A DNA stretch of 62,611 nucleotides from a virus, in IMG/VR virus record IMGVR_UViG_3300045747_000156, positions 1-62,611 of that record; one strand, 5' to 3'. The position numbers were made by a program, and so were the translations under genes. Below, in pieces: positions 1 through 20,957 of the stretch (position 1 is the first letter of the stretch; each line of letters begins with the position of its first letter). Under the pieces are notes generated by a model that worked only from the letters and a program-made list of their open reading frames with translations, was not told where the DNA came from and made no database searches.

Positions 1-127
1 GCAACACTCAAGGCTGCTGGAATGACAGTCATTGTTATTTCTGAATTAGCAACTACTGTTACAACAGGGTCAGCTAGTACGCTAGTACCACAGCTAAGAA
101 CTCTAATCAATGCAAACAGCATGGGGG
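1..127. repeat. Terminal direct repeat, copy A (identical to 62485-62611); circular-assembly overlap or terminal redundancy
   Basis: The string gcaacactcaaggctgctgg...caaacagcatggggg occurs at both window ends with no mismatch over 127 bp. Confidence 0.95.
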
Positions 128-7390: not shown

Positions 7391-8944
7391 ATGGCAGATG
7401 ATACAGGCGCATTAGGTTCAGCATTTGACGCACCGGGCGGAAAGTCCGTTGCTAGGTCCTTGGCATTCGGTCCTGGATCTATGCAGGGAGATTTGTCTGG
7501 CGTGCTCTCTCAGCTAGTAGACCCAGAGCGCTCGCGCCAAACTGAGAACAAAGCCTTTTGGGCTGGGATGACAGCTCCGAGCATGGGTCCAGGCTTCTCC
7601 ACCGGAAACGCGATGGCTGCTGAGGTGGCTGCTCGTGAGAATCAGGACAAGCTGCGTGCAGCTTACATCCCGATGATCATGCAGTCGATCACGGCCCAAC
7701 GTGCCAACGAGCTTGGCTATGCGAAGTTCGCTCAGGATCGTATGGAGAAGACCACTCCTCTGATCAACTCTGCCCTCTACGGCATGCAGGCAGACGGCAA
7801 GACGCCGTCTATTCAAGAGGCTCATAAGCGTATCGACGATGTCGGCGCCATGTTTGGCATGGGACAGCAAGAGATGTTCCCACATCATATGGCTTTGCAT
7901 CGTGGCGCTGGTGAAGACGGTTCTAAGATCGGTGACTATCTGCAACAGTTGCGAGTCTCCGCCGCTCCTGCAGAGGCTGGCGTCACCAAGTTCAACACCA
8001 ACGCTGCCGGTCAGATCACCCCAACCAATGCCGTCACAGGTACGGTTGGAACAGAAGGTCAAGGCGGACACGGTGCAAACCCTACCAAGACATCGGTTGA
8101 GATCGACAAAATGTACCGCCAAGATCCTGGCAAGTACACTGATGACCTCACTGGAGCTGTTTCGTCTTACAATGATATTCTGCAGCGCGGCAATGCAATC
8201 CAATCTAGCTTGAACACGTTCAACCCTGGTAAGTATGCTGCCAACATTGGCGGAGTTGCTGCTGCCACTAAGGACTTGGCAACTCGCTTCCCCAACGTTG
8301 CTACCAAGACTATAAATGACTATGTGACAAGTCTGATGGGATCCAAAGGTGATAAGGCTGATGCAAATCCTCAGGCAGCTTTGCAGTTTGCTGAGAGCTT
8401 GAAGACACAGGAAACTCTGGCTCAGCTGAAGTCGTCGCTTGAAGGTCAGGGCCGCATCGGCCAACAGGAGTTCACTGCATTGAATCGCGCCATGTTGAGC
8501 TCGGCATCTGACCCGGCTGCGTTCCAGAAGTTCATGGACTTCACGCGTGGTCGCGCAGCCAGCGTCACTAACAAACTAAAGGCTTGGGGTGATCACGCGG
8601 CTAAGCATGGTGACAATCTTTCCGTGCCAGCATTTGAGATCCCATGGCAAGTCAACGAGTCTACTCAGCTGATTGGTGGCGGCGGCAAGGACCCACGTTA
8701 CGGTCAGACAGACGTTCCTGCAGGAACCAAGAACCAGGCTGTTCCAAATCCTGCTCAACCCACCGCAGTGACTCCACCGGCGCCACAACCAGCCGCTCAG
8801 CCGGCGCCCGCAAAGCCTCAGGTCAGGCTTGAGGATTACGAGAAGGGCACGCGCGTTGGTCCCACCGGCGTTCCATACGTGATCGAGAACGGCGTGCCAC
8901 GTCCTGCTAAACGCCGTGGTGTCAGCGGTCAAATTACACAATAG
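7391..8944 (+). CDS. Putative internal virion protein with Pro-rich C-terminus
   Basis: Start chosen at MADDTGALGS (ATG 7391, after the upstream stop) rather than the track start 7358. C-terminus PAQPTAVTPPAPQPAAQPAPAKPQ. Confidence 0.45.
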   Translation: MADDTGALGSAFDAPGGKSVARSLAFGPGSMQGDLSGVLSQLVDPERSRQTENKAFWAGMTAPSMGPGFSTGNAMAAEVAARENQDKLRAAYIPMIMQSITAQRANELGYAKFAQDRMEKTTPLINSALYGMQADGKTPSIQEAHKRIDDVGAMFGMGQQEMFPHHMALHRGAGEDGSKIGDYLQQLRVSAAPAEAGVTKFNTNAAGQITPTNAVTGTVGTEGQGGHGANPTKTSVEIDKMYRQDPGKYTDDLTGAVSSYNDILQRGNAIQSSLNTFNPGKYAANIGGVAAATKDLATRFPNVATKTINDYVTSLMGSKGDKADANPQAALQFAESLKTQETLAQLKSSLEGQGRIGQQEFTALNRAMLSSASDPAAFQKFMDFTRGRAASVTNKLKAWGDHAAKHGDNLSVPAFEIPWQVNESTQLIGGGGKDPRYGQTDVPAGTKNQAVPNPAQPTAVTPPAPQPAAQPAPAKPQVRLEDYEKGTRVGPTGVPYVIENGVPRPAKRRGVSGQITQ

Positions 8945-8951
8945 GATAGCC

Positions 8952-11273
8952 ATGACAGACGTAGCCCTGAGATTGGAGGACCTGGCTCCAGAAGACAGGA
9001 CTTCACTGCCGTACAACCACCCACTGCTAGATGACTACGCGGTGCGCATGGCCAAAGAGCACGGTATTGACCCAAGCGTGGTATTGGCCATCAAGAACGC
9101 CGGCGAACGCTCTGGATCCAAGTCCGTGAGTTCTGCCAAAGCGCGCGGTGTCATGCAGACGATCCCGTCGACTCAGAAGGAGATGGGAGTCGAAGACCCC
9201 ACAGATCCTATGCAATCCATCATGGGTGGCGCTAAGTACTTGGCTCAAATCTCCAAGAAGCTCGGCACCACAGACCCTATGGTCATCGCAGCCGCGTACC
9301 ATGCAGGACCATCTTCTAAGCCTGCAACCGGCAATTTCGACGGTTCCCCGGTGACCAAGGCTTACGCTCAGCGCGTCTCTTCTCATGTTAGCCGCAATCC
9401 TTATAAGGACGCGGCTCCTAGCTCATCTCAGGTCTCCTCTGATGTTCCTACCTTGCCTCCTGGGGTCAGTTTAGACGACCTTACCGACGACGACAAGGCT
9501 GCTTTCTTGGCCTCTGCCCGTAAAAAGGATCCCATGCTGGACCCCACAAGCGGCAGCAGCTTTGGCCAGAACGCTCTTGAAGGCGTTGGCAAGTTCTTCT
9601 CCGACACCGGGTCTGGCATCCGTCAGATTGCAGCCAACGTTGCAAACCCAATAACGCAGGCTCTTAGCGGCAAGGACATACTTCCACAAGATTACGAAGG
9701 CGAACGTGAGCGCAAGATCCTTGATGCTCCTCTGATGGACACTGTTGGCGGTAACGTCGGATACGTCGGTGCCGGTGCTGCATCACTTGCAATACCAGGT
9801 GGCGTAGTATCCAAGTTTGCCGGAGCCGGTGCCGCACCGATTGCATCGGCCATGACCAATCCGATAGCGCGAGCCGCGGCCGCTAGGTATTTGCCCGTGG
9901 CTGCGACGGCCGGTGCTTTGTCTACGCTGACTCCAACCACGGCACCTGGTGAACGTGCCACCAATGCTGCTGTGAGCGCTGCTCTTGGGCCTGTCATGGA
10001 TAAAGGCGGTGAATTGATTGGACGCGTTGCGCGCCCAGCTATCAACTGGCTTGGTGACCGTGCTAACCTGGGTCCTCTGCTCCGTAAGAGCTTCAACGCA
10101 ACTGCAACACCGACCGAGCGCCAAGCCGTTGCTCGCGCAGTCATTGAGGACGTTCCAGTATATCCACAGCAGTTGGATAACCCAGGCTCGACCCTGCCTA
10201 AGGGCAAGGCTGATGCTCAGTCAGAAGCTCTGACACGGGCAATGAACTCTACTCATGGATCGTCGTCCAGCGATATTCCTGGTGCTTTGGCAGATAGCCG
10301 CCAGCGCTTAAGTGATGTATATGACTCCATCCTCAACGGCCGCGTCATTCATCTGAATACTCAATCAGGTCCTGCACCTGCCAACGGCATTACGTCCAAC
10401 GGACCAGCATCCCCAAGTAACTTCGTGCAGGGTCTCCAAGACATTCGCAGAAACTATCTTGGCGCTAAGCCGATGAGCACGCCAGACACTGAGTTGCTGA
10501 ACACTATCGACATGGCTATTGCTCATGCTAACAACAGCGGGACATTGACAGGTCGTCAATTCCAGAATTACCTACGGGACTATGCCGCTGGCGCGTCGCG
10601 TGCTCGCAAGTCTGGCATCAGCAACAACGTCATGACTGGTGCACCCGACCACGAGGCGGCTGATGCCTATCATCAACTGATCGGAGCCCTGGAAAACCAG
10701 GCTATGCCTTCCATCCCACAGTGGCAGCAACACGCTTTCCGCCAAGCCAACCGTCAGTTCCGCAACATGAAGACGTTAGAAGGTTTGGCACCTGCTGACA
10801 TCAGCGCAGACTTCAACCCAACGACTGTTGCCCGTAAGCTGCAGCGCACTCCAGGCATGACGTTTGATCAAGGCGATCCAACACTACAGGACCTCGCTAG
10901 GTTCGGTGCAACGTTCATGGGAATGGACGCCAACACCGGCAAACAGAGTCTGTGGCAGCAAGGTAAGAAGTTCGCCAAGACAGCGGCTCCGTACATTGCC
11001 ACGGGCTTAGGTGAAGGTGCTATCATCGCATCTGGCCAAGGTCACAACGAGGATGATGGCGTCCTGACAAAGGTTGCCAAGGCCTCGGTCCTGCCCCTAG
11101 CTGTCATGGGTGCCGCAGCAGCAGGCCGCGGGTCACTCAACAAGCGCATAGGACTCAGTCAATTGAACGAGCCTCGCGGTGCTCTGGCAGACTTGACTAG
11201 AATTCTGCAGACATCCCCAGGTGTAGCAGCGGCTATAGCCCAGCAACGTGACATGGGAGACCGCGAGCAATGA
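8952..11273 (+). CDS. Internal virion protein with N-terminal lytic transglycosylase (SLT) domain
   Basis: AIKNAGERSGS...ARGVMQTIPSTQKEMGV...GGAKYLAQISKKLG...AAAYHAGP matches the SLT motif order (E-S, GLMQ, AYNAGP). Start MTDVAL at 8952 with agga 5 nt upstream. Confidence 0.7.
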   Translation: MTDVALRLEDLAPEDRTSLPYNHPLLDDYAVRMAKEHGIDPSVVLAIKNAGERSGSKSVSSAKARGVMQTIPSTQKEMGVEDPTDPMQSIMGGAKYLAQISKKLGTTDPMVIAAAYHAGPSSKPATGNFDGSPVTKAYAQRVSSHVSRNPYKDAAPSSSQVSSDVPTLPPGVSLDDLTDDDKAAFLASARKKDPMLDPTSGSSFGQNALEGVGKFFSDTGSGIRQIAANVANPITQALSGKDILPQDYEGERERKILDAPLMDTVGGNVGYVGAGAASLAIPGGVVSKFAGAGAAPIASAMTNPIARAAAARYLPVAATAGALSTLTPTTAPGERATNAAVSAALGPVMDKGGELIGRVARPAINWLGDRANLGPLLRKSFNATATPTERQAVARAVIEDVPVYPQQLDNPGSTLPKGKADAQSEALTRAMNSTHGSSSSDIPGALADSRQRLSDVYDSILNGRVIHLNTQSGPAPANGITSNGPASPSNFVQGLQDIRRNYLGAKPMSTPDTELLNTIDMAIAHANNSGTLTGRQFQNYLRDYAAGASRARKSGISNNVMTGAPDHEAADAYHQLIGALENQAMPSIPQWQQHAFRQANRQFRNMKTLEGLAPADISADFNPTTVARKLQRTPGMTFDQGDPTLQDLARFGATFMGMDANTGKQSLWQQGKKFAKTAAPYIATGLGEGAIIASGQGHNEDDGVLTKVAKASVLPLAVMGAAAAGRGSLNKRIGLSQLNEPRGALADLTRILQTSPGVAAAIAQQRDMGDREQ

Positions 11274-12457
11274 GCAAGACCACTTTATTCAAGAATTTAG
11301 CCGGTGCTTTGTCACGGGCCTATGAAGATGTCGGCAGCAAGTGGGGCGGCAACCACGAAGTGCTATTTGACCGCCTAGGCTCCTTCTACAAAGGGCTGAC
11401 ACATGACCCTGAGTACTTTGCTACTAGCAAGGTGGTCCCTCAATCTGGTGATGACGTGCGCATCATGCGCGAACTTGAGCGGAAGCACGGACTTGGACAG
11501 GGAGATCTCCGCCTAGAATATGATGGTGGTTTACTACATCGACCATCAGGAGCCTCCATAGGAAACACTGGAGAGACACCGAACGAGATCAGATCCTACA
11601 TCTCAAAGAACGCACCTCCACCGTGGGGATACCTATCCCGCGAAGAGAAGCTGAAGTTCTCAGAAGCCGGTCGCTTAAACCCGGAATTGCCATTCTGGGA
11701 AATGGACATGATGGGAGCAGACAAAGGTTCAGGCACCGCTAAAACGCTGTATCCATTGTTTACTGATTGGATCATGGCCCATCCAGGAACCGGTGCGCGC
11801 ACTGTAGGCTTAACTGAGGCCAATGCTCAAAAGCGTGGCGTGTATCAGGCACAGGCTCTTGAGAAGTACGGTCCCGCGATGCTCAATAGAATCCAGAATG
11901 ATGCGGCTCAGCTGGACAACAGCTGGGGAACATCTGGCAACCACGCGACCATGCTTGGGATGGATACTCAGGGTCAGATAGGGGCCTACAATGCTCTTCT
12001 AGCTCAGCGCACCAATGAGAAACTACGTGACCTTCTGAAGCTGGGTAAGGAAGAGCACGGTACGTTGGACTTCAGCAAGGCCATGGAAGCCGAGATGCCA
12101 GAAGACATGCGATCGATGAATGAAAACTCTTTGCTGCGCCATGAGCTTTTAACCAAAGCCTTAGGCCGAGCTAGAATGTTTGGGCTTGACAAGCCGTCGG
12201 TCAACATGGATTTCCCGGCCGCTCAATCTATCATCAACGATCTGTCCAAGGGAATCTCCCAACCCATACCAGTGGGCCAGGATTCTCTGCGCCGTGCTGC
12301 TATCACTAACAGCTACGTGCAGGATCCTGGATTAGACATGGGAGACCTCATGGGAACTCCAATAGTCAAAGCACTTGCTCGCGCTAAAGGAGGTTCCGTG
12401 ACGACTCACCATACACACGCCGGGCCGTTGACACAGTGCTCGTGTGGAGCAAAATAG
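11270..12457 (+). CDS. Hypothetical late protein (last gene of the plus arm; ARAKGGSV motif near the C-terminus)
   Basis: 395 aa. ATGA overlap with the upstream gene. The 3' end overlaps the convergent minus-strand gene by 74 nt. Confidence 0.5.
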   Translation: MSKTTLFKNLAGALSRAYEDVGSKWGGNHEVLFDRLGSFYKGLTHDPEYFATSKVVPQSGDDVRIMRELERKHGLGQGDLRLEYDGGLLHRPSGASIGNTGETPNEIRSYISKNAPPPWGYLSREEKLKFSEAGRLNPELPFWEMDMMGADKGSGTAKTLYPLFTDWIMAHPGTGARTVGLTEANAQKRGVYQAQALEKYGPAMLNRIQNDAAQLDNSWGTSGNHATMLGMDTQGQIGAYNALLAQRTNEKLRDLLKLGKEEHGTLDFSKAMEAEMPEDMRSMNENSLLRHELLTKALGRARMFGLDKPSVNMDFPAAQSIINDLSKGISQPIPVGQDSLRRAAITNSYVQDPGLDMGDLMGTPIVKALARAKGGSVTTHHTHAGPLTQCSCGAK

Positions 12458-13265
12458 TCTTGGTCCCGTTGTAGCCTCCGGCTAGGTTGAAGACGCAAGG
12501 TACTTCGTTGTCGAAGCAGTATTTGAAGATGATCTCATCACGGTACTTCCACTCGTCATCGTTAAGATACCCGGCCATGTACGGGTCATCCTCATGTGAA
12601 TCGGCGCCTGCTTGATAGAGCACCGCGTCCCACTGCTTAAGACCTAGAGCGTGGCGCAGAGCGGCGAAAGACTTTCCTGCGTCACCTCCTGTAGATCCTT
12701 TGTCAAGCGAGCACTGATGCAGCCAATCGCGCCCACCTATTGTGATAAGGTCATCAGTACCGTCACCCCAGTGGCCATCGCCGTCAATGATAAGGACATT
12801 GGCACCGATAATCTTTTTGCGGACGGCGTCAGCAGCTAGTACTAGTCCATTAAAAGTGCAATAACCACCACCGTAAGCATACCCAGAATGATGGAATCCT
12901 GATACTGGAGCAAACACTGGGCTTGGGATACCTGCGTGAGCTGCTGCCAATGCTGTAATAGCCGCGTCGCGCATGATGACGCATGAGTGAGCTGAGTGGT
13001 CGTTGACCTTCGGATTGTCGATTCCATAACCATTGGGCTTAGTCCCGAGAAACACGTCGTGAACATAGCTTGAATCATGGATCTCCATCAGGTCTAAAAT
13101 TGCTTGATCTTCAGCGTATTTGGACGTCAGGATGATGTCCGATACAATATTGCGTGTGACATCGAAGACGGCCTTACCTTTTGATAAGTTAGGCGCGCCT
13201 TCGACTGGTGATGGTGGGTTATAAATGATCATGCATTGATTATAATGCACTTCCATCCGCTGCAA
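12384..13265 (-). CDS. HDAC / AcuC / acetylpolyamine-amidohydrolase family Zn-dependent deacetylase
   Basis: All family signatures occur in order: SGFHHSG (His-His), GYCTFNG, IIDGDGHWGDGT (Asp/His Zn ligands), YQAGADSHEDDP (Asp ligand), LAGGYN (catalytic Tyr). The start may be the internal Met at 13232 (MIIYNPP). Confidence 0.75.
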   Translation of the reverse strand: MQRMEVHYNQCMIIYNPPSPVEGAPNLSKGKAVFDVTRNIVSDIILTSKYAEDQAILDLMEIHDSSYVHDVFLGTKPNGYGIDNPKVNDHSAHSCVIMRDAAITALAAAHAGIPSPVFAPVSGFHHSGYAYGGGYCTFNGLVLAADAVRKKIIGANVLIIDGDGHWGDGTDDLITIGGRDWLHQCSLDKGSTGGDAGKSFAALRHALGLKQWDAVLYQAGADSHEDDPYMAGYLNDDEWKYRDEIIFKYCFDNEVPCVFNLAGGYNGTKTILLHTSTVSTARRVYGESSRNLL

Positions 13266-13734
13266 ATGTGTATTTGAAATCCAATTTCATCCACTTGCGG
13301 CCTGAGCTCTCCCACAGAGCCCTGGCTTCGGAGTGAGGATATTCCTCTAAGAACATGATCGTTTGGCACGATGTGTTCAGCAGCAGTTTAGTACACGTCA
13401 TGCAAGGGCTTGCTGTCACGTACGCGGTGTCTATGGAATAGACGTCTTTACACTGAAGCAGAGCATTCTGCTCGGCGTGTATCGATTGGCACCCGTCAAG
13501 GTTCGCACCACTAGGAGAGTGAGCCCCGGAGCAGGCGTGCGGAAACCCTATTGGATGAAACATGTCATGATGGTTGCAGTGAGGCTGCCCAGAAGCGACC
13601 CCATTGTAGCCGGTAGCAAGCACGTGGCCGCGACCGTTTACCAACACTGCACCAACCTTGCGGCGGATGCAGGTGGCGCGCTGGGCTGTCACCACCGCCA
13701 TGGCCATTGCCCATGAGTGGCGATCAGGCCGCAT
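13240..13734 (-). CDS. dCMP (deoxycytidylate) deaminase
   Basis: HAEQNAL and PCMTCTKLL zinc motifs. N-terminus RHSWAMAMAVVTAQRATCIRRKVGAVLV is typical of ComEB/dCMP deaminases. Start chosen at Met 13734. Confidence 0.85.
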   Translation of the reverse strand: MRPDRHSWAMAMAVVTAQRATCIRRKVGAVLVNGRGHVLATGYNGVASGQPHCNHHDMFHPIGFPHACSGAHSPSGANLDGCQSIHAEQNALLQCKDVYSIDTAYVTASPCMTCTKLLLNTSCQTIMFLEEYPHSEARALWESSGRKWMKLDFKYTFAADGSAL

Positions 13735-14539
13735 CCGTAGCTCCAACACCGGTTGCTTCCCACCACCGATACGCGTCACCAGGACTGGATTCACGTAGGA
13801 GTTTAAGACGCCTCATCAAGGCTTCCTCGTCGGTATAGAGGTGACTAGGAGTCAATGCTATGCGAGGCATGAGCCGGCCATCGGTCTCACTCAGTAGGGT
13901 CTTGGCCTCTTTCCAATTCTTGTCATACAGATGGCAAGAAGCCGCGGTCAAGAACAATGTTCCTGGTTGCACTGCCCGCTCATGCTTCTGCAAAAGGCGT
14001 GCACAGATCAAGTGGGCCAGCATGCTGAAGTTAAACACGTCGTACGGAAGACCGAGCCAAACGTCAGACGAACGCATGAACACGTGCATGTTCAGCTTGC
14101 CATCACGCATCGACGCGAAGATCGACACGGTGCACGGCACGTCCTTTGTCTGAGGTGGATTCTCACGCCAAATTGTCAATCCAGCCTGGCGAGTATCTGG
14201 ATCTTCGTGCAACTTTCGCACCACGTAGTCCAGTTGCCCGATAACCTTTGGGCCGTAGGCGCCAAAGAACGTCGTGCCGTCGTCACTGAAGTTGGCGATA
14301 TGCTTGTTCCAAGGACTGATGCCCGCAACGGTGTCGTCACCGCTGAGAATCCAGTAGGCTTCAGCTGCCAAGAACCGGTAACTGAGTTTGCGCTCGCGGA
14401 TAGTCAAGACTGGGTGCCTCATGTCCACAATGGTCGTGTGTTGAGGTACCTCCAGGGTGTCGTGGTTTCGCGGACTCACCAACGTCCCATGCATGAACAA
14501 CTCAGACAGCGTATTCAACCAAGCTATATTCATGTTCAT
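13724..14539 (-). CDS. Thymidylate-synthase-family pyrimidine C5 transferase; Asp at the base-specificity position predicts dCMP hydroxymethylase or dCMP methylase
   Basis: Gapless match from the catalytic Cys: VPCTVSIFASMRDGKLNMHVFMRSSDVWLGLPYD versus E. coli ThyA [34 protein letters not shown]. Cys136 codon at 14132-14134; Asp167 codon GAC at 14039-14041, where ThyA has Asn177 and T4 gp42 has Asp179. Confidence 0.75.
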   Translation of the reverse strand: MNMNIAWLNTLSELFMHGTLVSPRNHDTLEVPQHTTIVDMRHPVLTIRERKLSYRFLAAEAYWILSGDDTVAGISPWNKHIANFSDDGTTFFGAYGPKVIGQLDYVVRKLHEDPDTRQAGLTIWRENPPQTKDVPCTVSIFASMRDGKLNMHVFMRSSDVWLGLPYDVFNFSMLAHLICARLLQKHERAVQPGTLFLTAASCHLYDKNWKEAKTLLSETDGRLMPRIALTPSHLYTDEEALMRRLKLLRESSPGDAYRWWEATGVGATDAA

Positions 14540-14913
14540 GCTTTGCTCCTTGTATCCGCCAAGAAGAAGCCTGCGTAGTTGATGATGTCCAACGCGGTAT
14601 CGTTCAGCCCTTCGAAGTTGACGTCCTTGCCCTCAGCAACCTTGCGGGTGATCGACACAAAGCGCTCAGACTTCGTATGGAGCATTTGAGCATAGCTCAC
14701 TGCACCAAATGGGAAGTAGCCTGTGCGGTCAATCGTGTGCAGGTTCTGAGACGCACCATGGTTGTAATCGGCAGACTTCTTTGCGCACAGCAGAGCCGCG
14801 TCAGCGAGAGCGCCTGGATGGCCACCACGAATCGAGAGCTCTTGGAGCATCTCGACAGTGGAAAGCCTAGATGCGGCGGTCGGTGCCGCCACTATAGATT
14901 TAGGCGTGGCCAT
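14536..14913 (-). CDS. DUF1599-like (nucleotide-modification-associated, all-alpha) protein
   Basis: Pattern KSADYNHGAS...GAVSYAQMLHTKSERFVSI...LNDTALDIINYAGFF resembles DUF1599 as I recall it. ATGA/TAATG coupling to both neighbours. Confidence 0.5.
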   Translation of the reverse strand: MATPKSIVAAPTAASRLSTVEMLQELSIRGGHPGALADAALLCAKKSADYNHGASQNLHTIDRTGYFPFGAVSYAQMLHTKSERFVSITRKVAEGKDVNFEGLNDTALDIINYAGFFLADTRSKA

Positions 14914-15344
14914 TATTGATCCTTGCAGTGAGCGTTCAGGATTTCATCGGTCTTGGGACCGACCCAGCCCGGAGGCTTAGCGACATCAATGCCGATGTTG
15001 CGGTGCGTACGACCGACAACCTTTGCCATGTTGGCTCGCTGCACATCCATCCAAAGCTCTTCCCATGGGAGGCCCATTTCGATGGCCGTTCCTTTGGCAA
15101 CGTAGACCAGATCAATGAGGGCATCAGCCATCAGAGCGGCATTGTGGCGTTGGAGACCGACTTTGAATTCGTCGAGCTCTTCCTGCATGAAGCGTACGCG
15201 CTCATATCCACGGTCGACAGTGCAAAACATTGCCGATGGGCGTTGGCCCACTGGTTGCTTGAACTTCTCGTAGAAGGCGCGTACGTCTTCCATCTCGTCA
15301 TAGACGAATTTACGTTTGATGAATGAGATGATTGCTTTGATCAT
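14913..15344 (-). CDS. MazG/HisE-like all-alpha NTP pyrophosphohydrolase (candidate dCTPase/dUTPase)
   Basis: EELDEFKVGLQRHNAALMADALIDLVYVAKGTAIEMG fits the EExxE...D..DL.Y metal-binding helices. Start at 15344 overlaps the upstream TGA (ATGA). Confidence 0.65.
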   Translation of the reverse strand: MIKAIISFIKRKFVYDEMEDVRAFYEKFKQPVGQRPSAMFCTVDRGYERVRFMQEELDEFKVGLQRHNAALMADALIDLVYVAKGTAIEMGLPWEELWMDVQRANMAKVVGRTHRNIGIDVAKPPGWVGPKTDEILNAHCKDQ

Positions 15345-16105
15345 GCTGGTTTCCGGCAAATCCACAGGTTGTTACGGGCTTCGTCTGGGTATAGAGGAGC
15401 AAAGATGCAGGAAATCGCATCATTGTCGTAGTACTCAGACAAAGCCTTTTTGACTTCTGCAATGGCTGATTTGTTGGCGCGGTCAGTCTCAGCTTTACCA
15501 ATGTGTTTGATGTCCATGAAGACACCGTAACGCTTCTCAATTTTGAAGCCGGCCTTTTCCGTCGCTTTTTGCAACTCAGGAATTTCATACTCATGGATGT
15601 GGTTTGCGGCATGGCGCACGCCGTCATAGCACGGAGTGGACATCAACATAATGCCGCCTGGTTTCAGAGACGCAAAGCAAGCCTTCAACATCTTTGCACC
15701 GTGCTCTACGCGCATGTGCTCGATCACTTCGTAGTGAACAACAATGTCAAAGCCGCCGGCGTTGTCGCCCTTGAGAAGTTCCTTGTAGCGCTCAACAAAG
15801 TTGAACTCGCCATGGAACTGGAGCTTGGCCGCAGCAGACGGCTTCAGCTTGTTGAGGTCAACACCGGTGTAGTGCAACACATGAGGCGCAGCACCACCGG
15901 TCAGGATCTTGCTCAACGGTTTGTCTTCACCGCAACCGATTTCAAGGACGCGGTCCTTAGTGGTAATGAAGCGGCGGGCAAAGCTCCAGCGAAAAAAGTG
16001 ACCTGAGTAGTCGCGGCCCAAAGTCTTTCCGTGACCGTTGGCGTGGAGTTGGGTCGTGTCGTAGTCGCGATCGTCGCGGTTCTTTTCTTTACGAGTAGTA
16101 GCCAT
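15341..16105 (-). CDS. Class I SAM-dependent methyltransferase (not a recognisable DNA MTase)
   Basis: Motif I VLEIGCGEDKPL, post-I YTGVDLN, FDIVVHYEVIEHM, LKPGGIMLMSTP. No DPPY/NPPY or PCQ motif. Confidence 0.75.
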   Translation of the reverse strand: MATTRKEKNRDDRDYDTTQLHANGHGKTLGRDYSGHFFRWSFARRFITTKDRVLEIGCGEDKPLSKILTGGAAPHVLHYTGVDLNKLKPSAAAKLQFHGEFNFVERYKELLKGDNAGGFDIVVHYEVIEHMRVEHGAKMLKACFASLKPGGIMLMSTPCYDGVRHAANHIHEYEIPELQKATEKAGFKIEKRYGVFMDIKHIGKAETDRANKSAIAEVKKALSEYYDNDAISCIFAPLYPDEARNNLWICRKPA

Positions 16106-16156
16106 GATGTTCTTGGATCCTCAGCAAATTGGTTGACGAAACAGGCTTACGCCCAA

Positions 16157-16762
16157 TTACTTGGCGCCTTTGACGGCCTTGGCAGCAGGAGGGTTCGCGC
16201 CCTTCTTGGTCAAGTCGTTGCGGTACCATGCCACGTAGCTGAACTTTTTGTCGTCCAGACCGTGAGCAGCTTGCACCTTTTCAAAGATCTTCTGATCAGA
16301 CAGATTGCCAGCCATGATGAGGTCTTTGAACATTTGAGCGGCAGACGGACCTTTCTTTTCAGCTTTGGCAGGCTTTTCGGCCGCGACCTTTGGGGTCTTG
16401 ACCGCCTTTGCCGGCTTTTCAGCTGGGACGTCTTTGGTTGCTTTTTCCACTTTGGCAGTGGACGCCTTTTTGGCTGTAGCCATTTCTATTTCCTTTTGGG
16501 ACAGTTTAGTAAGGCGGCCAAGTGCTTCCATGGCCTCCGGTGATGCCCCGACAGTCCGTGCATACTGAGCGTACAGCTGAGCACAACGTTCCACCGGGTA
16601 ATCGTCAAGCGGTTGGTACAGCTCAACGAATGCTTTACTGGGCATGTGTTCGATATTGAAACCGTTCTCAATGCTCAGGGGAATGAATTCTACAGTGGAA
16701 CCGCCACTTAGCGCTAGGCACGTGCGTCGTTGGCGGTCTGCACAAACAGATGGATATGACAT
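16157..16762 (-). CDS. Lys/Ala/Pro-rich (histone H1-like) protein with C-terminal WYRxxLxKKG domain
   Basis: Strong RBS ctgaggatcattaaATG. Central AKKASTAKVEKATKDVPAEKPAKAVKTPKVAAEKPAKAEKK. The C-terminal domain is paralogous to that of 31067..31516. Confidence 0.6.
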   Translation of the reverse strand: MSYPSVCADRQRRTCLALSGGSTVEFIPLSIENGFNIEHMPSKAFVELYQPLDDYPVERCAQLYAQYARTVGASPEAMEALGRLTKLSQKEIEMATAKKASTAKVEKATKDVPAEKPAKAVKTPKVAAEKPAKAEKKGPSAAQMFKDLIMAGNLSDQKIFEKVQAAHGLDDKKFSYVAWYRNDLTKKGANPPAAKAVKGAK

Positions 16763-16814: not shown

Positions 16815-18224
16815 TTATGATTTTTGGCGGCGTGATTTTGCAAGTTGCTTGAGCCCATCAAATAACGCATTCTGTGTTTTGCCCTTAGCAGTCAAGCTAT
16901 TCCACACATATAGGTCCACAGTGTTGTCGCACAAAAGAACGTGTACGATGACGCGTTTGCTCTTGTTGCCCTGCCTGAGGACGCGTCTGATGAACTGGTC
17001 GTAGACCTCACCGTCCCACGTTAGAGTAAACCAAGCCACGTTGTGCCCAGCTTCTTGGAGGTTCAAACCGTGGCTAAGACTCTGCGCCTGCGCAAACAAA
17101 ACTGGGATTACACCACTGTTCCACTTGTCTTCCAACTTCTTGAAGTCCTTGGCAGCATAGTCGCCAGCAAAGACCGCGGTTGGGAATGCTTTGCGCAGGC
17201 GCTCAGCTTCGTGGCTGAACTCGTACGCCACCAGCAGCGGAGACCCTTGCAGCTCCTCGATGATCACTTCCAGTGCCTCTATCTTCTCGGTGTGCAATTC
17301 TGCCCACTCGCGCTTGGTCTTTGATGGCTTGAACAGACCTTCAACCTCAGGTGTCAAGAACACAGCCCCCGAAGCCATCTGACGGCATTTGCCCATGGCC
17401 ACACCGCTGTTCTTGGCAACAACGGACCCCTGCTCGATCTCGGCTACGAGGTCATCCTCAACGCTGAGATAAGCTGCTAGAGCGGCGTCTGGCATCTTGA
17501 CCCTGACGATGTTCTCTATCAACTGAGGCATTTCTAGATAGTCTTCTGCCGCCATACGCAGGACCAGCGGGTTCAGCTTCTTGTAGATGAGGTCCTCGGA
17601 TCCTGGCTTTATATCCCACCCAAATCCGTTGTAGGCCTGTGTGAAGTAAGTTTTCTGGTAGTGGGTAATATACTGGCCAAGCGCATTGCCCTGGTCTAGC
17701 ATGTACATCTGTCCAAACAATTGCAGAAGGCCGTTGGCGGCTGGTGACCCCGTCAAACCCCAGCGGCGACGGAATGTATTGATGACCTGCTTCATGGCCT
17801 TGAACCTATCAGACTGATGGTTCTTGAATGCAGTCAGCTCATCAATGACCAGAGTACCAAACCCTAGTTTTTTGAACCGCTTCAGGTCAACTGAGACGGC
17901 GTTCTTGCCTGTCCGCGGTGACTTGACTTTGGTGACTCCTAGCAGCCATTCAAGTCCACCTGGATTGATGACGTAGATGTCAGCTTCCTGCTCCAGCAGC
18001 TTATCCTTGTGGGGACCGTGCAGAACCACGATACGCAAGCCTGCAAAATCCAACCACTTAGCAGCTTCGCCTGGCCATGTTGCATGGGCAACACGCAGTG
18101 GCGCAACAATCAAGACCTTGTCTTCTTTGCCGGCCTTTAGTAGCAGTTTTATAGCGGCTAATGTTATAGAGGTTTTTCCTAAACCTTCACTAACCAGGGT
18201 CGAGAAATAACCCGGCTGAACCAT
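16815..18224 (-). CDS. SNF2-family helicase, main body (motif I onward); N-terminus lies in another frame
   Basis: LVSEGLGKTS (motif I), VIDELTAFKN (motif II), SLSHGLNLQ (V), QFIRRVLRQGN (VI). The Q-motif region is encoded by 18190..18312 in a different frame. Confidence 0.8.
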   Translation of the reverse strand: MVQPGYFSTLVSEGLGKTSITLAAIKLLLKAGKEDKVLIVAPLRVAHATWPGEAAKWLDFAGLRIVVLHGPHKDKLLEQEADIYVINPGGLEWLLGVTKVKSPRTGKNAVSVDLKRFKKLGFGTLVIDELTAFKNHQSDRFKAMKQVINTFRRRWGLTGSPAANGLLQLFGQMYMLDQGNALGQYITHYQKTYFTQAYNGFGWDIKPGSEDLIYKKLNPLVLRMAAEDYLEMPQLIENIVRVKMPDAALAAYLSVEDDLVAEIEQGSVVAKNSGVAMGKCRQMASGAVFLTPEVEGLFKPSKTKREWAELHTEKIEALEVIIEELQGSPLLVAYEFSHEAERLRKAFPTAVFAGDYAAKDFKKLEDKWNSGVIPVLFAQAQSLSHGLNLQEAGHNVAWFTLTWDGEVYDQFIRRVLRQGNKSKRVIVHVLLCDNTVDLYVWNSLTAKGKTQNALFDGLKQLAKSRRQKS

Positions 18225-18313: not shown

Positions 18314-18826
18314 TTATTTCCTTGACAGAAGAACGCCAGCAGAAATTTTTGCTTTTGCTTCTTCAGTATGATGTTTACCAAACATTGGATGTTTGGTTCC
18401 AGTTCTTCCATAGCCTGGCGCGTCTTCTTTGGCCCTGCCGTACATAGGGTTTCCCTTTCCTGACACTCGTTGACTCATCCTCTCCCGTTTTTCAGGAGTC
18501 CATACAGATTTCCAAATCCCCTTCATAGAGGCGTCTAGCTGATTCTCTTTATTTGTTCCCAACCATAAATGATCAGGATTGATGCAACCCTTATTATCAC
18601 ACGTGTGGCAGACAAAAAGCCCGGTTGGGACTTTCCCTACGTGCAATTGGTATGACGCTATGTTAGCTCTTCTATGGTACGAAGCCCGTTGTAAATGCCT
18701 TGACAGCATTCCATATCCGTTCCAGGATACACTGCCAGACCACATCCAGCAACCACCCACAACTTCGTAGTTTGTCAAAAGTTGAAATACCAAGAAGTCG
18801 TTGATGTCATCCTGTGTTCTAGCCAT
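18314..18826 (-). CDS. Free-standing HNH homing endonuclease with NUMOD3-like repeats
   Basis: [28 protein letters not shown] (HNH_3-type) plus GKGNPMYGR and [20 protein letters not shown] (NUMOD3-like). Confidence 0.8.
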
Positions 18827-20550: not shown

Positions 20551-20957
20551 GATAATTCTCCTTTAAGATATTTAACTGCTCGTTCTACGTTTTTCAATGA
20601 GTCGCTTAGCAAGCCTAGGCCTCTGTTACATCGGTGACAAAGAAGCCCTCTTATTTTGCCGGTTTTGTGGTCATGATCTACGCAAAAGAACCCCTTTCCA
20701 GTCTGGCCTTTGTCTGTTGACTTACAGATTGCACATTTGCCCTTTTGGCTCTTTAGCATGCGTTCGTAATCCTCAGTAGTGATACCGTATGAGAATTTCA
20801 AAGCATTTCGTCTAACTCTTAGGGCAAATCCTACCGGATCTTTAGCCTTGGACTCGCGCATTCTATCTGCGTAGTAAGTGGGGTTCTTTTCCCTAAACTT
20901 CCTAGACGCCTCCCTTCTTGACGCAAGTGCGGCCTCAGTGTATTGGTCAGTTGCCAT
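20523..20957 (-). CDS. Recombination endonuclease VII
   Basis: CAICKSTDKG...FCVDHDHKTGKIRGLLCHRCNRGLGLL is the Endonuclease_7 signature. Start chosen at MATDQY (20957). Confidence 0.85.
   Translation of the reverse strand: MATDQYTEAALASRREASRKFREKNPTYYADRMRESKAKDPVGFALRVRRNALKFSYGITTEDYERMLKSQKGKCAICKSTDKGQTGKGFFCVDHDHKTGKIRGLLCHRCNRGLGLLSDSLKNVERAVKYLKGELSWSPNKLKL

What the first reader, a model, noticed from the sequence alone, without database searches (positions are those of the whole stretch)
12384..13265. Phage-encoded HDAC/acetylpolyamine-amidohydrolase-like deacetylase with an intact catalytic set
The ~282-293 aa protein keeps every hallmark of the arginase-deacetylase fold in the right order: GFHH (tandem His), GYCTFNG, IIDGDGHWGDGT (Asp and His Zn ligands), YQAGADSHEDDP (third Zn ligand) and AGGY (transition-state Tyr). 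It is shorter than cellular homologues (typically 340 aa or more). It is the terminal, overlapping gene of the nucleotide-metabolism operon. HDAC-family enzymes are unusual in phage genomes and I know of no assigned phage role. Possible roles are deacylation of a DNA-base or nucleotide intermediate, release of polyamines from acetylpolyamines for DNA condensation or base adducts, or deacetylation of a host protein or defence-related metabolite.
Basis: partly seen in the sequence, partly recalled or inferred. Interest (0 to 1): 0.7.

Follow-up and report, generated by a model that had tools for sequence, protein, structure and literature searches.

The report
Phage deacylase paired with orphan protein
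This uncultivated podophage encodes an apparently active zinc deacylase of the HDAC11-like branch; it belongs to a widespread, unstudied viral clade that usually sits next to the same orphan protein, and its substrate is unknown.

Summary
ORF 12384-13265(-) scores 75.9 bits against Pfam Hist_deacetyl (cutoff 27.9). It folds confidently (pLDDT 95) and keeps both catalytic His, the Asp-His-Asp zinc ligands and the catalytic Tyr. All 65 distinct viral relatives I collected keep them too.

The nearest solved structures are class IV enzymes, Leptospira HDAC11 and Vibrio HdaH. Both are lysine fatty-acid deacylases of 300-319 aa. APAH and AcuC are more distant. The protein is therefore not unusually short. 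GTDB genomes hold 387 loci encoding relatives; the ORFs I called in the 80 fetched are about 270-390 aa.

It is rare in cultured phages: 1 tblastn hit in 50,697 records and no PHROG. IMG/VR, however, holds at least 194 related loci.

The gene always ends a DNA or nucleotide-metabolism module, but the chemistry of that module varies. I saw a probable C5-modified dC pathway here, 5-hmdU hypermodification, PurZ/dZ, and RNR/ThyX. A dedicated base-modification step is therefore unlikely.

The new result is a conserved partner. In 41 of 65 viral loci the HDAC abuts one orphan family, here 11270-12457(+), with a 74-nt overlap of the two 3' ends. That family is related to LPD37.

My best guess, at low confidence, is a protein N-acyl-lysine deacylase working with or on that partner. 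The substrate is untested.

The parts
12384..13265 (-). HDAC-superfamily (class IV-like) Zn deacylase gene. Possible starts are 13265 (TTG), 13256 (ATG) and 13232 (ATG); the stop is TAG at 12386-12384.
   Evidence: ORF and motifs. Pfam PF00850 4.6e-21. AF2 pLDDT 95.1. Foldseek best matches 9gz5, 9gky and 9gkv with TM 0.77-0.79. Catalytic H125, H126, D161, D163, H165, D222 and Y265 are invariant in 65 of 65 viral relatives. Start analysis.
11270..12457 (+). Orphan 'partner' protein of 395 aa and last gene of the late adaptor-nozzle-ejection-protein operon. It belongs to a small family related to LPD37 with an invariant C-terminal Gly-Gly.
   Evidence: No Pfam, PHROG, NCBIfam, PADLOC or PDB match for this protein itself. 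The family has 73 representatives among 1.84 billion proteins. Homology of the three neighbour clusters rests on hhalign probabilities of 98.7 and 95.9 and on jackhmmer. It is adjacent to the HDAC in 41 of 65 distinct viral loci. LPD37 hits occur in 3 of 52 members. Motifs.
12384..12457 (.). 74-nt stretch where the 3' ends of the convergent HDAC and partner genes overlap, so it codes on both strands.
   Evidence: Sequence. All 10 distinct convergent pairs overlap, by 33-116 nt. Gene tables.
13240..13794 (-). dCMP deaminase gene, immediately upstream of the HDAC.
   Evidence: Pfam dCMP_cyt_deam_1 6.7e-19 and phrog_174 4.7e-38.
13724..14539 (-). Divergent thymidylate-synthase homologue. It is probably a pyrimidine C5-(hydroxy)methylase that prefers dCMP.
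   Evidence: Pfam Thymidylat_synt 2.5e-24, but NCBIfam ThyA scores lie far below their cutoffs. Best GenBank phage hits are annotated 'pyrimidine hmase' and 'dUMP hydroxymethyltransferase'. It has Asp (LPYD) where HMUDK-linked homologues have Asn.
14536..16762 (-). Rest of the conserved nucleotide cluster: a 125-aa unknown (14536-14913), a MazG-like NTP pyrophosphohydrolase (14913-15365), a SAM-dependent methyltransferase (15341-16105) and a 201-aa unknown (16157-16762).
   Evidence: Pfam and PHROG results. The same order occurs in relatives L003, L005 and L188 and in the cultured phages AXL3 and PW916.
8916..11273 (+). 785-aa SLT-domain protein just upstream of the partner. By my own knowledge of T7 gp16, it is probably an ejection (internal virion) protein.
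   Evidence: Orthologues in L003, L005 and L007 carry PF01464 SLT. The 656-aa ORF at 3238-5208 matches podovirus nozzle proteins. The adaptor orthologue carries PF24175 SU10_adaptor.

Best explanation
The ORF encodes an active, compact zinc-dependent amidohydrolase of the HDAC superfamily, on the class IV (HDAC11/HdaH-like) branch. It is transcribed as the last gene of the phage's DNA-replication and nucleotide-metabolism operon.

It forms an inherited two-gene unit with the neighbouring orphan protein at 11270-12457(+). That protein is related to LPD37, ends the ejection-protein operon, and carries an invariant C-terminal Gly-Gly.

The most likely chemistry is the standard HDAC mechanism. Zinc-activated water, the His-His pair and the Tyr remove an acyl group from the epsilon-amine of a protein lysine. 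By analogy with class IV enzymes the acyl group may be longer than acetyl. The target would be the partner protein itself or host proteins that the pair acts on during takeover or conflict with the host.

Shown: the fold, the catalytic residues, the class IV affinity, the operon position and the partner linkage. Inferred: the substrate, the acyl-chain length and the biological role.
For: Enzyme identity:
- Pfam PF00850 4.6e-21 and AF2 pLDDT 95.1.
- All seven catalytic and metal residues are invariant in 65 of 65 viral relatives and in 41 of 41 sequences of alignment A1.

Class IV affinity:
- The best PDB sequence hits are V. cholerae HdaH 9gkv (3.4e-12) and HDAC11 homologues 9rje and 9gz5. APAH reaches only 5e-5 and HDAC8 only 8e-4.
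- The best Foldseek hits are 9gz5, 9gky and 9gkv at TM 0.77-0.79, against 0.67-0.74 for HDAC4/6/7/8 and APAH.
- The motif VSGFHH replaces the class I RPP motif, as SGGYHH does in HdaH and GGGFHH in HDAC11. Graf et al. link this replacement to a foot pocket that accepts long acyl chains (PMC11532494).
- YQAGADSHEDDP aligns to YDAGVDIHNDDE in HdaH.

Partner linkage:
- The neighbour clusters c17, c67 and c1 are homologous.
- The partner is adjacent in 41 of 65 distinct HDAC loci. Ten pairs are convergent with 33-116 nt overlap and 31 are co-directional and abutting. These are two different genome architectures.
- HDACs linked to a partner form one clade with its own active-site signature, DGDGH instead of DLDMH.
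- Look-ups seeded with the partner find a convergent HDAC in 5 of 7 cases.
- Partner relatives match LPD37, a domain of phage 'polyvalent' proteins that are predicted to be injected with the DNA.

The neighbouring nucleotide modules differ in chemistry, which argues against one dedicated small-molecule pathway.
Against: - No substrate evidence of any kind exists.
- Identity to characterised class IV enzymes is only about 20%, so specificity cannot be transferred.
- The Lys before the partner's invariant Gly-Gly is not itself invariant. A simple 'acyl-Lys on the partner tail' model is therefore not supported.
- Partner-family genes occur without an HDAC in 2 of 7 sampled loci. 24 of 65 viral HDACs have no partner.
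- In the window-type genomes the adjacency could partly reflect the meeting point of two operon ends.
- The partner AF2 model is mediocre (pLDDT 73.7, only 1 of 5 models good) and matches no known fold.
- The phage lineages that carry the pair share replication genes (PolA, DUF932), so the contexts are not fully independent.
Confidence: 0.35

Rival explanations
1. It is an acetylpolyamine amidohydrolase. It would free putrescine or spermidine from the host's N-acetylated pool to support replication, condensation and packaging of phage DNA.
For: HDAC-fold APAHs exist, and giant-virus APAHs have been shown to be active (PMC9992855). The gene is co-transcribed with DNA-metabolism genes in every context seen. 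APAH structures are significant Foldseek and sequence matches.
Against: APAHs are clearly more distant than class IV lysine deacylases: E = 5e-5 against 3e-12, and TM 0.67-0.72 against 0.77-0.79. The motifs are of the class IV type. The neighbours annotated in the window and in the representative loci include no polyamine genes. The conserved partner is left unexplained. The published virome survey found APAH homologues only in Imitervirales.
Confidence: 0.17
2. It deacylates a nucleic-acid-linked amide, that is, an acylated base, nucleotide intermediate or DNA adduct such as 5-acetylaminomethyl-dU. This would make it an accessory of non-canonical DNA synthesis or repair.
For: - The partner-linked clade was found only in phages with base-replacement clusters. 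Here that is a probable C5-modified dC pathway. Type B loci carry AADT, a FAD oxidoreductase, HMUDK and a GNAT, as in PaMx11, which makes 5-AcNmdU. Type C loci carry PurZ, MazZ and a DatZ-like HD protein.
- Bacterial relatives often sit next to WYL regulators and UvrD/PD-(D/E)XK genes.
- The loop that follows the strand after the Zn-binding His is about 20 residues shorter than in HdaH. If it is the loop that carries the tunnel-wall Phe in HDAC8 (my knowledge of that enzyme), the active site would be more open.
Against: The same enzyme clade accompanies chemistries that have no acyl step, such as dZ. AXL3, PW916 and MW202621 carry the window's nucleotide cluster without any HDAC. The window has no HMUDK, AADT or GNAT. 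No HDAC-fold enzyme is known to act on nucleic acids (my own knowledge).
Confidence: 0.12
3. It is a counter-defence or general host-reprogramming enzyme that acts alone. It would strip acetyl or acyl marks from many host proteins, or hydrolyse an acylated defence-related metabolite. On this view the neighbouring orphan is only a structural or ejection protein that happens to lie at the operon boundary.
For: 24 of 65 viral HDACs lack the partner, and the partner exists without an HDAC. Partnerless phage HDACs are interleaved with bacterial ones in the tree, which suggests repeated capture of a self-sufficient enzyme. The gene sits at the end of an operon, as accessory genes typically do.
Against: Co-directional, abutting HDAC-partner pairs lie in a non-structural region of the type C phages. 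The partner-linked HDACs are monophyletic with their own active-site signature. There is no PADLOC match or other link to a defence system.
Confidence: 0.2

Closest known systems
Vibrio cholerae HdaH (Graf et al. cluster 5b; PDB 9GKV/9GKY) and Leptospira interrogans HDAC11 (PDB 9GZ5), which are bacterial class IV deacylases
   Same: Single-domain arginase/deacetylase fold of about 300 aa. Identical catalytic set. A G-G/S-[FY]-H-H motif in place of RPP. A Y-x-A-G-x-D-x-H-x-D-D motif. Best sequence and structure matches.
   Different: Only about 20% identity. About 20-30 residues shorter, mainly in the loop after the Zn-His strand. DGDGH instead of D-hydrophobic-D-hydrophobic-H. Phage-encoded, with a conserved orphan partner. 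De-fatty-acylase activity is untested.
Acetylpolyamine amidohydrolases (M. ramosa APAH; giant-virus APAHs of Klosneuvirus, Tupanvirus and Hyperionvirus)
   Same: Same superfamily and mechanism. These are the only virus-encoded HDAC-fold enzymes with a demonstrated activity (PMC9992855).
   Different: A more distant branch. About 340 aa and dimeric. Reported in eukaryotic giant viruses, not in phages.
Bacillus subtilis AcuC in the acuABC operon (the label JGI gives this gene)
   Same: An HDAC-fold deacetylase encoded next to the proteins it works with. The JGI name is 'AcuC-like'.
   Different: AcuC is class I-like and larger (my own knowledge). No AcuA (GNAT) or AcuB is present here. The partner showed no GNAT homology in profile-profile tests.
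Legionella LphD (HDAC effector) working with the methyltransferase RomA
   Same: An HDAC-fold enzyme deployed by an invader against host proteins. I recall from memory, untested here, that it works in tandem with a second effector. LphD itself is mentioned in PMC11532494.
   Different: A eukaryotic histone target, a different HDAC cluster, and no sequence relation between RomA and the partner.
LPD37 and other solo 'large polyvalent-protein-associated domains' (Iyer et al. 2017), for the partner protein
   Same: 3 of 52 partner-family members match Pfam LPD37. Such solo domains are described as lying next to phage structural genes and are predicted to act early after injection (PMC5512222).
   Different: The window's own partner does not reach the Pfam model. 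LPD37 has no known function. No HDAC is mentioned in that survey.

Membership tests
HDAC / arginase-deacetylase superfamily (Pfam PF00850) | Profile match above the curated threshold | tested here: met
   75.9 bits against a cutoff of 27.9, E = 4.6e-21
HDAC / arginase-deacetylase superfamily (Pfam PF00850) | Tandem catalytic His, Asp-His-Asp zinc ligands and the transition-state Tyr | tested here: met
   H125, H126, D163, H165, D222 and Y265, plus D161, are invariant in 65 of 65 viral relatives and aligned to HdaH
HDAC / arginase-deacetylase superfamily (Pfam PF00850) | Alpha/beta deacetylase fold | tested here: met
   AF2 pLDDT 95.1; 460 PDB matches with E <= 1e-3, and all 50 listed are HDAC-superfamily enzymes
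HDAC / arginase-deacetylase superfamily (Pfam PF00850) | Zinc-dependent amide hydrolysis | not testable with these tools
   Needs an enzyme assay
Class IV (HDAC11/HdaH-like; cluster 5 of Graf et al. 2024) | Nearest characterised relatives are class IV enzymes | tested here: met
   Top sequence hits 9gkv, 9rje and 9gz5; top Foldseek hits 9gz5, 9gky and 9gkv
Class IV (HDAC11/HdaH-like; cluster 5 of Graf et al. 2024) | RPP motif replaced by a G/S-G-[FY]-H-H motif, and an x-G-G-Y motif (foot-pocket lining) | tested here: met
   VSGFHH and AGGY, compared with SGGYHH/GGGY in HdaH and GGGFHH/SGGY in HDAC11 (PMC11532494)
Class IV (HDAC11/HdaH-like; cluster 5 of Graf et al. 2024) | Placement inside cluster 5 in a rooted phylogeny that includes all HDAC classes | not tested
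   My NJ tree contains only this clade and its bacterial relatives
Class IV (HDAC11/HdaH-like; cluster 5 of Graf et al. 2024) | Preference for long-chain acyl-lysine | not testable with these tools
   Needs an assay. No model coordinates were available to measure the pocket.
Acetylpolyamine amidohydrolase (APAH / HDAC10-like) | Closest similarity to APAH enzymes | tested here: not met
   APAH E = 5e-5 to 4e-4 and TM 0.67-0.72, below the class IV hits
Acetylpolyamine amidohydrolase (APAH / HDAC10-like) | Acidic gatekeeper and constricted tunnel for the polyamine cation; dimer-formed active site | not tested
   No coordinates or reference sequences were at hand
Thymidine-hypermodification pathway (5-HMUDK / AADT systems) | Co-encoded 5-hmdU DNA kinase and amino-acid:DNA transferase | tested here: not met
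   Neither is found among the window's operon genes. Both are present in more distant HDAC-bearing relatives: L007 and L008 carry HMUDK and AADT, and L170 carries HMUDK.
Polyvalent-protein-associated domain LPD37 (for the partner 11270-12457) | Match to Pfam PF18853 | tested here: inconclusive
   The window protein has no hit. 3 of 52 family members hit, best E = 7e-9. P0192 carries a precomputed LPD37 hit.
GNAT acyltransferase (considered for the partner) | Profile or fold similarity to GNATs | tested here: not met
   hhalign probability 0.1-0.3% against a phage GNAT family. Foldseek HAT1 hits are only E = 1.7-4.8.

The most novel reading that the evidence does not exclude
The HDAC and the LPD37-related orphan form a previously unrecognised two-component phage cassette. 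In this reading a class IV-type deacylase matures, activates or cooperates with an effector that may be injected with the DNA. The cassette would be carried preferentially by phages with non-canonical DNA (modified dC, hypermodified dT, dZ). It would be the first acyl-lysine, or other amide, 'eraser' used in phage-host conflict.
Probability: 0.2. Interest if true: 0.8.

Novelty: new variant of a known kind. Interest (0 to 1): 0.6.

Why it matters
I found no assigned function for an HDAC-fold enzyme in any phage in the literature searched. Bacterial class IV deacylases also lack known physiological substrates.

This work defines a viral clade with fully conserved catalytic residues: 65 distinct proteins among the 80 IMG/VR loci fetched, out of at least 194 related loci. 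It also identifies a conserved partner gene. Together these give a concrete, testable system: two small genes, clear catalytic mutants, and candidate substrates.

If the pair acts on proteins, reversible lysine acylation would become a phage takeover or counter-defence mechanism. If it acts on polyamines or DNA adducts, the known chemistry of phage DNA metabolism would be extended.

The context also flags an uncultivated podophage lineage that swaps between three base-replacement pathways.

Tried and rejected
- **Partner as a GNAT acyltransferase.** A motif resemblance (GxGxAK..Y and EKYG) suggested a writer-eraser pair. Foldseek gave only weak HAT1 hits, E = 1.7-4.8. hhalign against a phage GNAT family gave probabilities of 0.1-0.3%. 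PDB profile searches found nothing. The idea is rejected as unsupported.
- **HDAC as a step of thymidine hypermodification.** The window lacks HMUDK and AADT. The key papers mention no deacetylase.
- **HDAC as part of dZ synthesis.** Neither the association-study preprint (0 occurrences) nor the other PurZ/dZ papers returned by the search (0 occurrences each) mention a deacetylase. dZ chemistry has no acyl step.
- **Defence-system membership.** No PADLOC hit for the HDAC or the partner.
- **Partner fold.** Searches against PDB and BFVD found nothing significant. PHROG and Pfam scans of 52 members returned only the LPD37 hits.
- **DNA similarity to cultured phages.** None.
- **Promoter and terminator scans around the gene.** Not above the shuffled background.
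- **Partner-seeded IMG/VR scans.** One failed for lack of conserved stretches. The others returned only contigs already known to carry the HDAC.
- **Pocket measurements.** Not possible, because model coordinates are not exposed.
Full report
**1. Observation**

The ORF listing gives a 293-aa ORF at 12384..13265 on the minus strand. Its translation contains SGFHH, GGYCTFNG, IIDGDGHWGDGT, YQAGADSHEDDP and AGGY in that order.

Pfam assigns it to Hist_deacetyl (PF00850) with E = 4.6e-21 and 75.9 bits, against a cutoff of 27.9. PHROGs, NCBIfam and PADLOC give nothing.

The start codon is ambiguous. TTG at 13265 gives 293 aa, ATG at 13256 gives 290 aa (the JGI call, P0001), and ATG at 13232 gives 282 aa. 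Most homologues begin at the third site, with 'MII..', 7 nt after the dCMP-deaminase stop.

An AlphaFold2 model built on 41 sequences is very confident, with pLDDT 95.1 and pTM 0.93. I collected 65 distinct viral relatives. All seven catalytic or metal residues (H125, H126, D161, D163, H165, D222, Y265 in ORF numbering) are invariant in them.

**2. Which kind of HDAC**

By sequence, the best solved relatives are:
- V. cholerae HdaH, 9gkv, E = 3.4e-12.
- HDAC11 homologues 9rje and 9gz5.
- Lysine deacylase 5zmp and the uncharacterised HDAC-superfamily protein 5ji5.

All of these are 305-319 aa (chain lengths). APAH reaches only 5e-5 and HDAC8 only 8e-4.

Foldseek ranks L. interrogans HDAC11 (9gz5, solved with dodecenoic acid) and HdaH (9gky, solved with decanoic acid) first, at TM 0.77-0.79. 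HDAC4/6/7/8 and APAH score 0.67-0.74.

The motifs fit class IV. VSGFHH stands where class I enzymes have RPP, next to the His pair. HdaH has SGGYHH there and human HDAC11 has GGGFHH. Graf et al. connect this replacement with an extended foot pocket and de-fatty-acylase activity (PMC11532494). YQAGADSHEDDP aligns with YDAGVDIHNDDE of HdaH.

Identity to these enzymes is only about 20%. The loop that follows the strand after the zinc-binding His is about 20 residues shorter than in HdaH. I could not measure the pocket because model coordinates are not exposed.

The label 'acetylpolyamine-amidohydrolase-like' is therefore not the best one. 'Class IV/HDAC11-like' is.

The claim that the protein is shorter than cellular homologues is wrong. 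387 loci in GTDB species genomes encode relatives. The HDAC ORFs I called in the 80 loci fetched are about 270-390 aa, most of them 270-340 aa.

**3. Genome context in the window**

The minus-strand operon runs as follows:
- primase/helicase-like protein, DNA ligase, DUF932
- PolA (20947-22863), endonuclease VII, PD-(D/E)XK exonuclease, VRR-NUC
- an HNH homing endonuclease
- SNF2 helicase (16815-18224)
- a 201-aa unknown, a SAM methyltransferase, MazG, a 125-aa unknown
- the TS homologue, dCMP deaminase, and finally the HDAC

The plus-strand late operon converges on it. It encodes the adaptor, the nozzle (the 656-aa ORF matches nozzle proteins), four unknowns, a 785-aa SLT-type protein and a 395-aa orphan at 11270-12457. 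The orphan's last 74 nt overlap the 3' end of the HDAC gene.

The window carries an exact 127-bp terminal repeat, so it is probably a complete genome. It shows no DNA similarity to any cultured phage.

**4. Relatives elsewhere**

The protein search gave more than 6000 hits. The closest 120 are 198-322 aa, and many lie on contigs of 50-66 kb.

Only one of 50,697 GenBank phage records has a tblastn match, the uncultured jumbo phage LR756511. A pattern scan of IMG/VR found 194 viral loci, of which I fetched 80.

I called ORFs in all loci, clustered them and annotated cluster representatives. The contexts fall into these types:
- **Type A**, like the window: MTase, MazG, TS-like, dCMP deaminase, HDAC, with the orphan and the SLT protein convergent.
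- **Type B**: AADT (PF18724), a FAD oxidoreductase, 5-HMUDK (PF18723), a 350-aa TS homologue, an HD protein, DUF3310, HDAC, with the orphan convergent. A GNAT lies upstream. This is the gene set that Lee et al. showed makes 5-AcNmdU in PaMx11 (PMC8989533).
- **Type C**, 31 distinct loci with all genes on one strand: UvrD, PolA, PurZ-like (PF00709), MazZ-like (PF04447), an HD (DatZ-like) protein, an NrdR-type zinc ribbon, HDAC, then the orphan.
- **Type D**: DnaB, ribonucleotide reductase, HDAC, ThyX, thymidylate kinase, MT-A70.
- **Type E**: DNA ligase, HDAC, an AAA_5 ATPase.
- **Type F**: tail sheath genes, HDAC.

In all types except F the HDAC lies in a DNA or nucleotide-metabolism block. 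The chemistry next to it changes from type to type.

Cultured phages that share the window's cluster at 54-63% identity of the TS homologue have no HDAC. These are Stenotrophomonas AXL3, Pseudoxanthomonas PW916 and MW202621.

This pattern argues against a dedicated step in any one base-modification pathway. It is what one expects of an accessory gene expressed together with the replication genes.

**5. The partner**

The gene next to the HDAC belongs to cluster c17 in the window type, c67 in some type B loci and c1 in type C.
- hhalign relates the clusters: c17 to c67 with probability 98.7, c1 to c67 with probability 95.9, and c1 to c17 with E = 3e-4 over 211 collinear columns.
- jackhmmer started from the window protein recovers all members.
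- Of 65 distinct viral HDACs, 41 have this protein immediately adjacent. Ten pairs are convergent with 33-116 nt of 3' overlap. Thirty-one are co-directional, with the partner start at or overlapping the HDAC stop, in a non-structural region.
- In a rough NJ tree the partner-linked HDACs form one clade. The partnerless phage HDACs are interleaved with bacterial ones.
- The partner-linked clade has its own signature around the metal ligands, DGDGH against DLDMH.

The partner family is small and evolves fast, with 73 representatives among 1.84 billion proteins.

I looked up seven of those representatives. Five have a convergent, overlapping HDAC (P0170, P0192, P0135, P0149, P0161). Two have none (P0177, P0188). 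The partner can therefore exist alone.

The conserved features of the partner are:
- G-x-G-x-[AG]-K-x-x-Y
- L-T-x-x-N-x-x-R-R
- G-x-x-S-L-R-R
- an invariant Gly-Gly about 10-25 residues from the C-terminus, usually preceded by Lys or Arg, though not always

Its AF2 model is moderate (pLDDT 73.7, one good model of five). It has no significant match in PDB or BFVD.

Three of 52 members match Pfam LPD37, with a best E of 7e-9. LPD37 is one of the uncharacterised domains of 'polyvalent proteins'. Iyer et al. predict these proteins are injected with phage or plasmid DNA to act in the first phase of infection. They note that solo versions lie beside structural genes (PMC5512222). That fits the window, where the partner follows the SLT-type protein.

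**6. Bacterial relatives**

In the 80 genome loci the neighbourhoods look cellular and are varied. The only recurring neighbours are:
- WYL-WCX regulators, directly adjacent in at least 8 loci.
- In three of those loci, a UvrD-like helicase and a PD-(D/E)XK nuclease.
- In Comamonadaceae, a VWA protein and a protein with a weak MerR_1 match.

Only one genome locus contains a partner-like ORF.

**7. Interpretation**

Shown:
- An intact class IV-like HDAC-fold enzyme.
- Its position as last gene of the replication and nucleotide operon.
- Membership of a sizeable uncultivated-phage clade.
- Conserved linkage to an LPD37-related orphan.

Inferred:
- It removes an acyl group from a lysine of a protein, either the partner or a host target of the pair. 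The group may be longer than acetyl.

I give this a confidence of 0.35. The rivals are:
- Polyamine deacetylase (0.17). This is plausible biology, but the enzyme is on the wrong branch, the annotated neighbours include no polyamine genes, and the partner is unexplained.
- Deacylation of a DNA- or nucleotide-linked amide (0.12). The association with non-canonical-DNA phages and with bacterial DNA-repair neighbourhoods is attractive. The enzyme is nevertheless dispensable for those pathways, and it also accompanies chemistries that have no acyl group.
- A stand-alone host-reprogramming or counter-defence deacylase whose neighbour is incidental (0.2).

**8. Literature**

Searches for phage HDAC, deacetylase with thymidine hypermodification, PurZ/dZ, AcuC and polyvalent proteins found no described phage HDAC function. 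Virus-encoded APAHs have been characterised only in Imitervirales.

**9. Verdict**

The finding is real and the enzyme call is right. The subfamily and the 'short' argument need correction, and the nucleotide-pathway role is unlikely. What is new is a viral class IV-like deacylase clade with a conserved partner. I rate it a new variant of a known kind with moderately high interest, because it turns an unannotated, widespread phage gene pair into a directly testable system.

Noticed in passing
window 13724-14539 (-): The TS homologue has Asp in the motif RSSDVWLGLPYD. HMUDK-linked homologues have Asn at that position (GANS), and so, from my knowledge, does canonical ThyA (Asn177). In T4 dCMP hydroxymethylase and in TS N177D mutants (my own knowledge), Asp switches the substrate to dCMP. 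This phage may therefore make 5-methyl- or 5-hydroxymethyl-dC rather than dTMP. The related cultured phage AXL3 has DNA that resists 35 of 37 restriction enzymes (PMC7504290).
   Followed up: partly
window 14536-16762 (-): The block of a 201-aa unknown, a UbiG-like SAM methyltransferase, MazG and a 125-aa unknown is conserved with the TS homologue and dCMP deaminase in metagenomic relatives. AXL3 (which has a 199-aa hypothetical at the matching position), PW916 and MW202621 share the methyltransferase/MazG part with the TS homologue and dCMP deaminase. It looks like an uncharacterised base-modification pathway in which the methyltransferase may further modify the C5 substituent.
   Followed up: partly
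window 1-127 and 62485-62611: An exact 127-bp direct repeat at the two ends of the window. The contig is probably a complete genome, either circularly assembled or with a terminal repeat.
   Followed up: partly
window 18314-18826 (-); L003 7371-7853: An HNH homing endonuclease (HNH_3 + NUMOD3) lies between the SNF2 helicase and VRR-NUC genes here. A relative has an HNH (NUMOD4 + HNH_3) at a different place, between the methyltransferase and MazG. Mobile endonucleases appear to be hopping within the operon.
   Followed up: no
L022, L025, L045, L048, L053, L054, L057, L060-L063, L067, L072, L080, L089 and others (about 9000-12000): 31 distinct IMG/VR loci carry a PurZ-like, MazZ-like and HD (DatZ-like) cluster with PolA, a predicted 2-aminoadenine DNA system. 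An NrdR-type zinc-ribbon gene, the HDAC and the partner follow immediately. The dZ papers I checked mention no deacetylase.
   Followed up: partly
L007 15-10963, L002, L015, L170: Podophage genomes with a PaMx11-like set (GNAT, AADT, FAD oxidoreductase, 5-HMUDK, a 350-aa dUMP hydroxymethylase homologue, an HD protein, DUF3310) plus the HDAC. An acetyltransferase and a deacylase thus coexist in a predicted 5-AcNmdU pathway.
   Followed up: partly
L094, L100, L120, L134, L148, L161, L164, L168 (around 8000): Bacterial homologues of the HDAC lie directly beside WYL-WCX transcription regulators. In L120, L167 and L168 they are also near a UvrD-like helicase and a PD-(D/E)XK nuclease. This hints at a DNA-damage or defence-island context for the cellular clade.
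   Followed up: partly
window 12386-12457 (+), C-terminus of the 395-aa protein: The tail ARAKGGSVTTHHTHAGPLTQCSCGAK has a Gly-Gly that is invariant across the whole partner family and a clade-specific CxCG near the end. It is encoded entirely within the overlap with the HDAC gene. The meaning is unknown; a processing site, a docking peptide or a modification site are possible.
   Followed up: partly
window 38783-46826 (+): Two very large ORFs of 1702 and 980 aa. The 1702-aa one has no PDB sequence match. Neither was examined further.
   Followed up: no
L115, L122, L132, L141, L155: A small Comamonadaceae/Polaromonas group of HDACs nests inside the partner-linked phage clade in the NJ tree. 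Its conserved neighbours are a VWA-domain protein, a protein with a weak MerR_1 match and a 229-aa unknown. This could be a captured phage gene or a prophage remnant.
   Followed up: no
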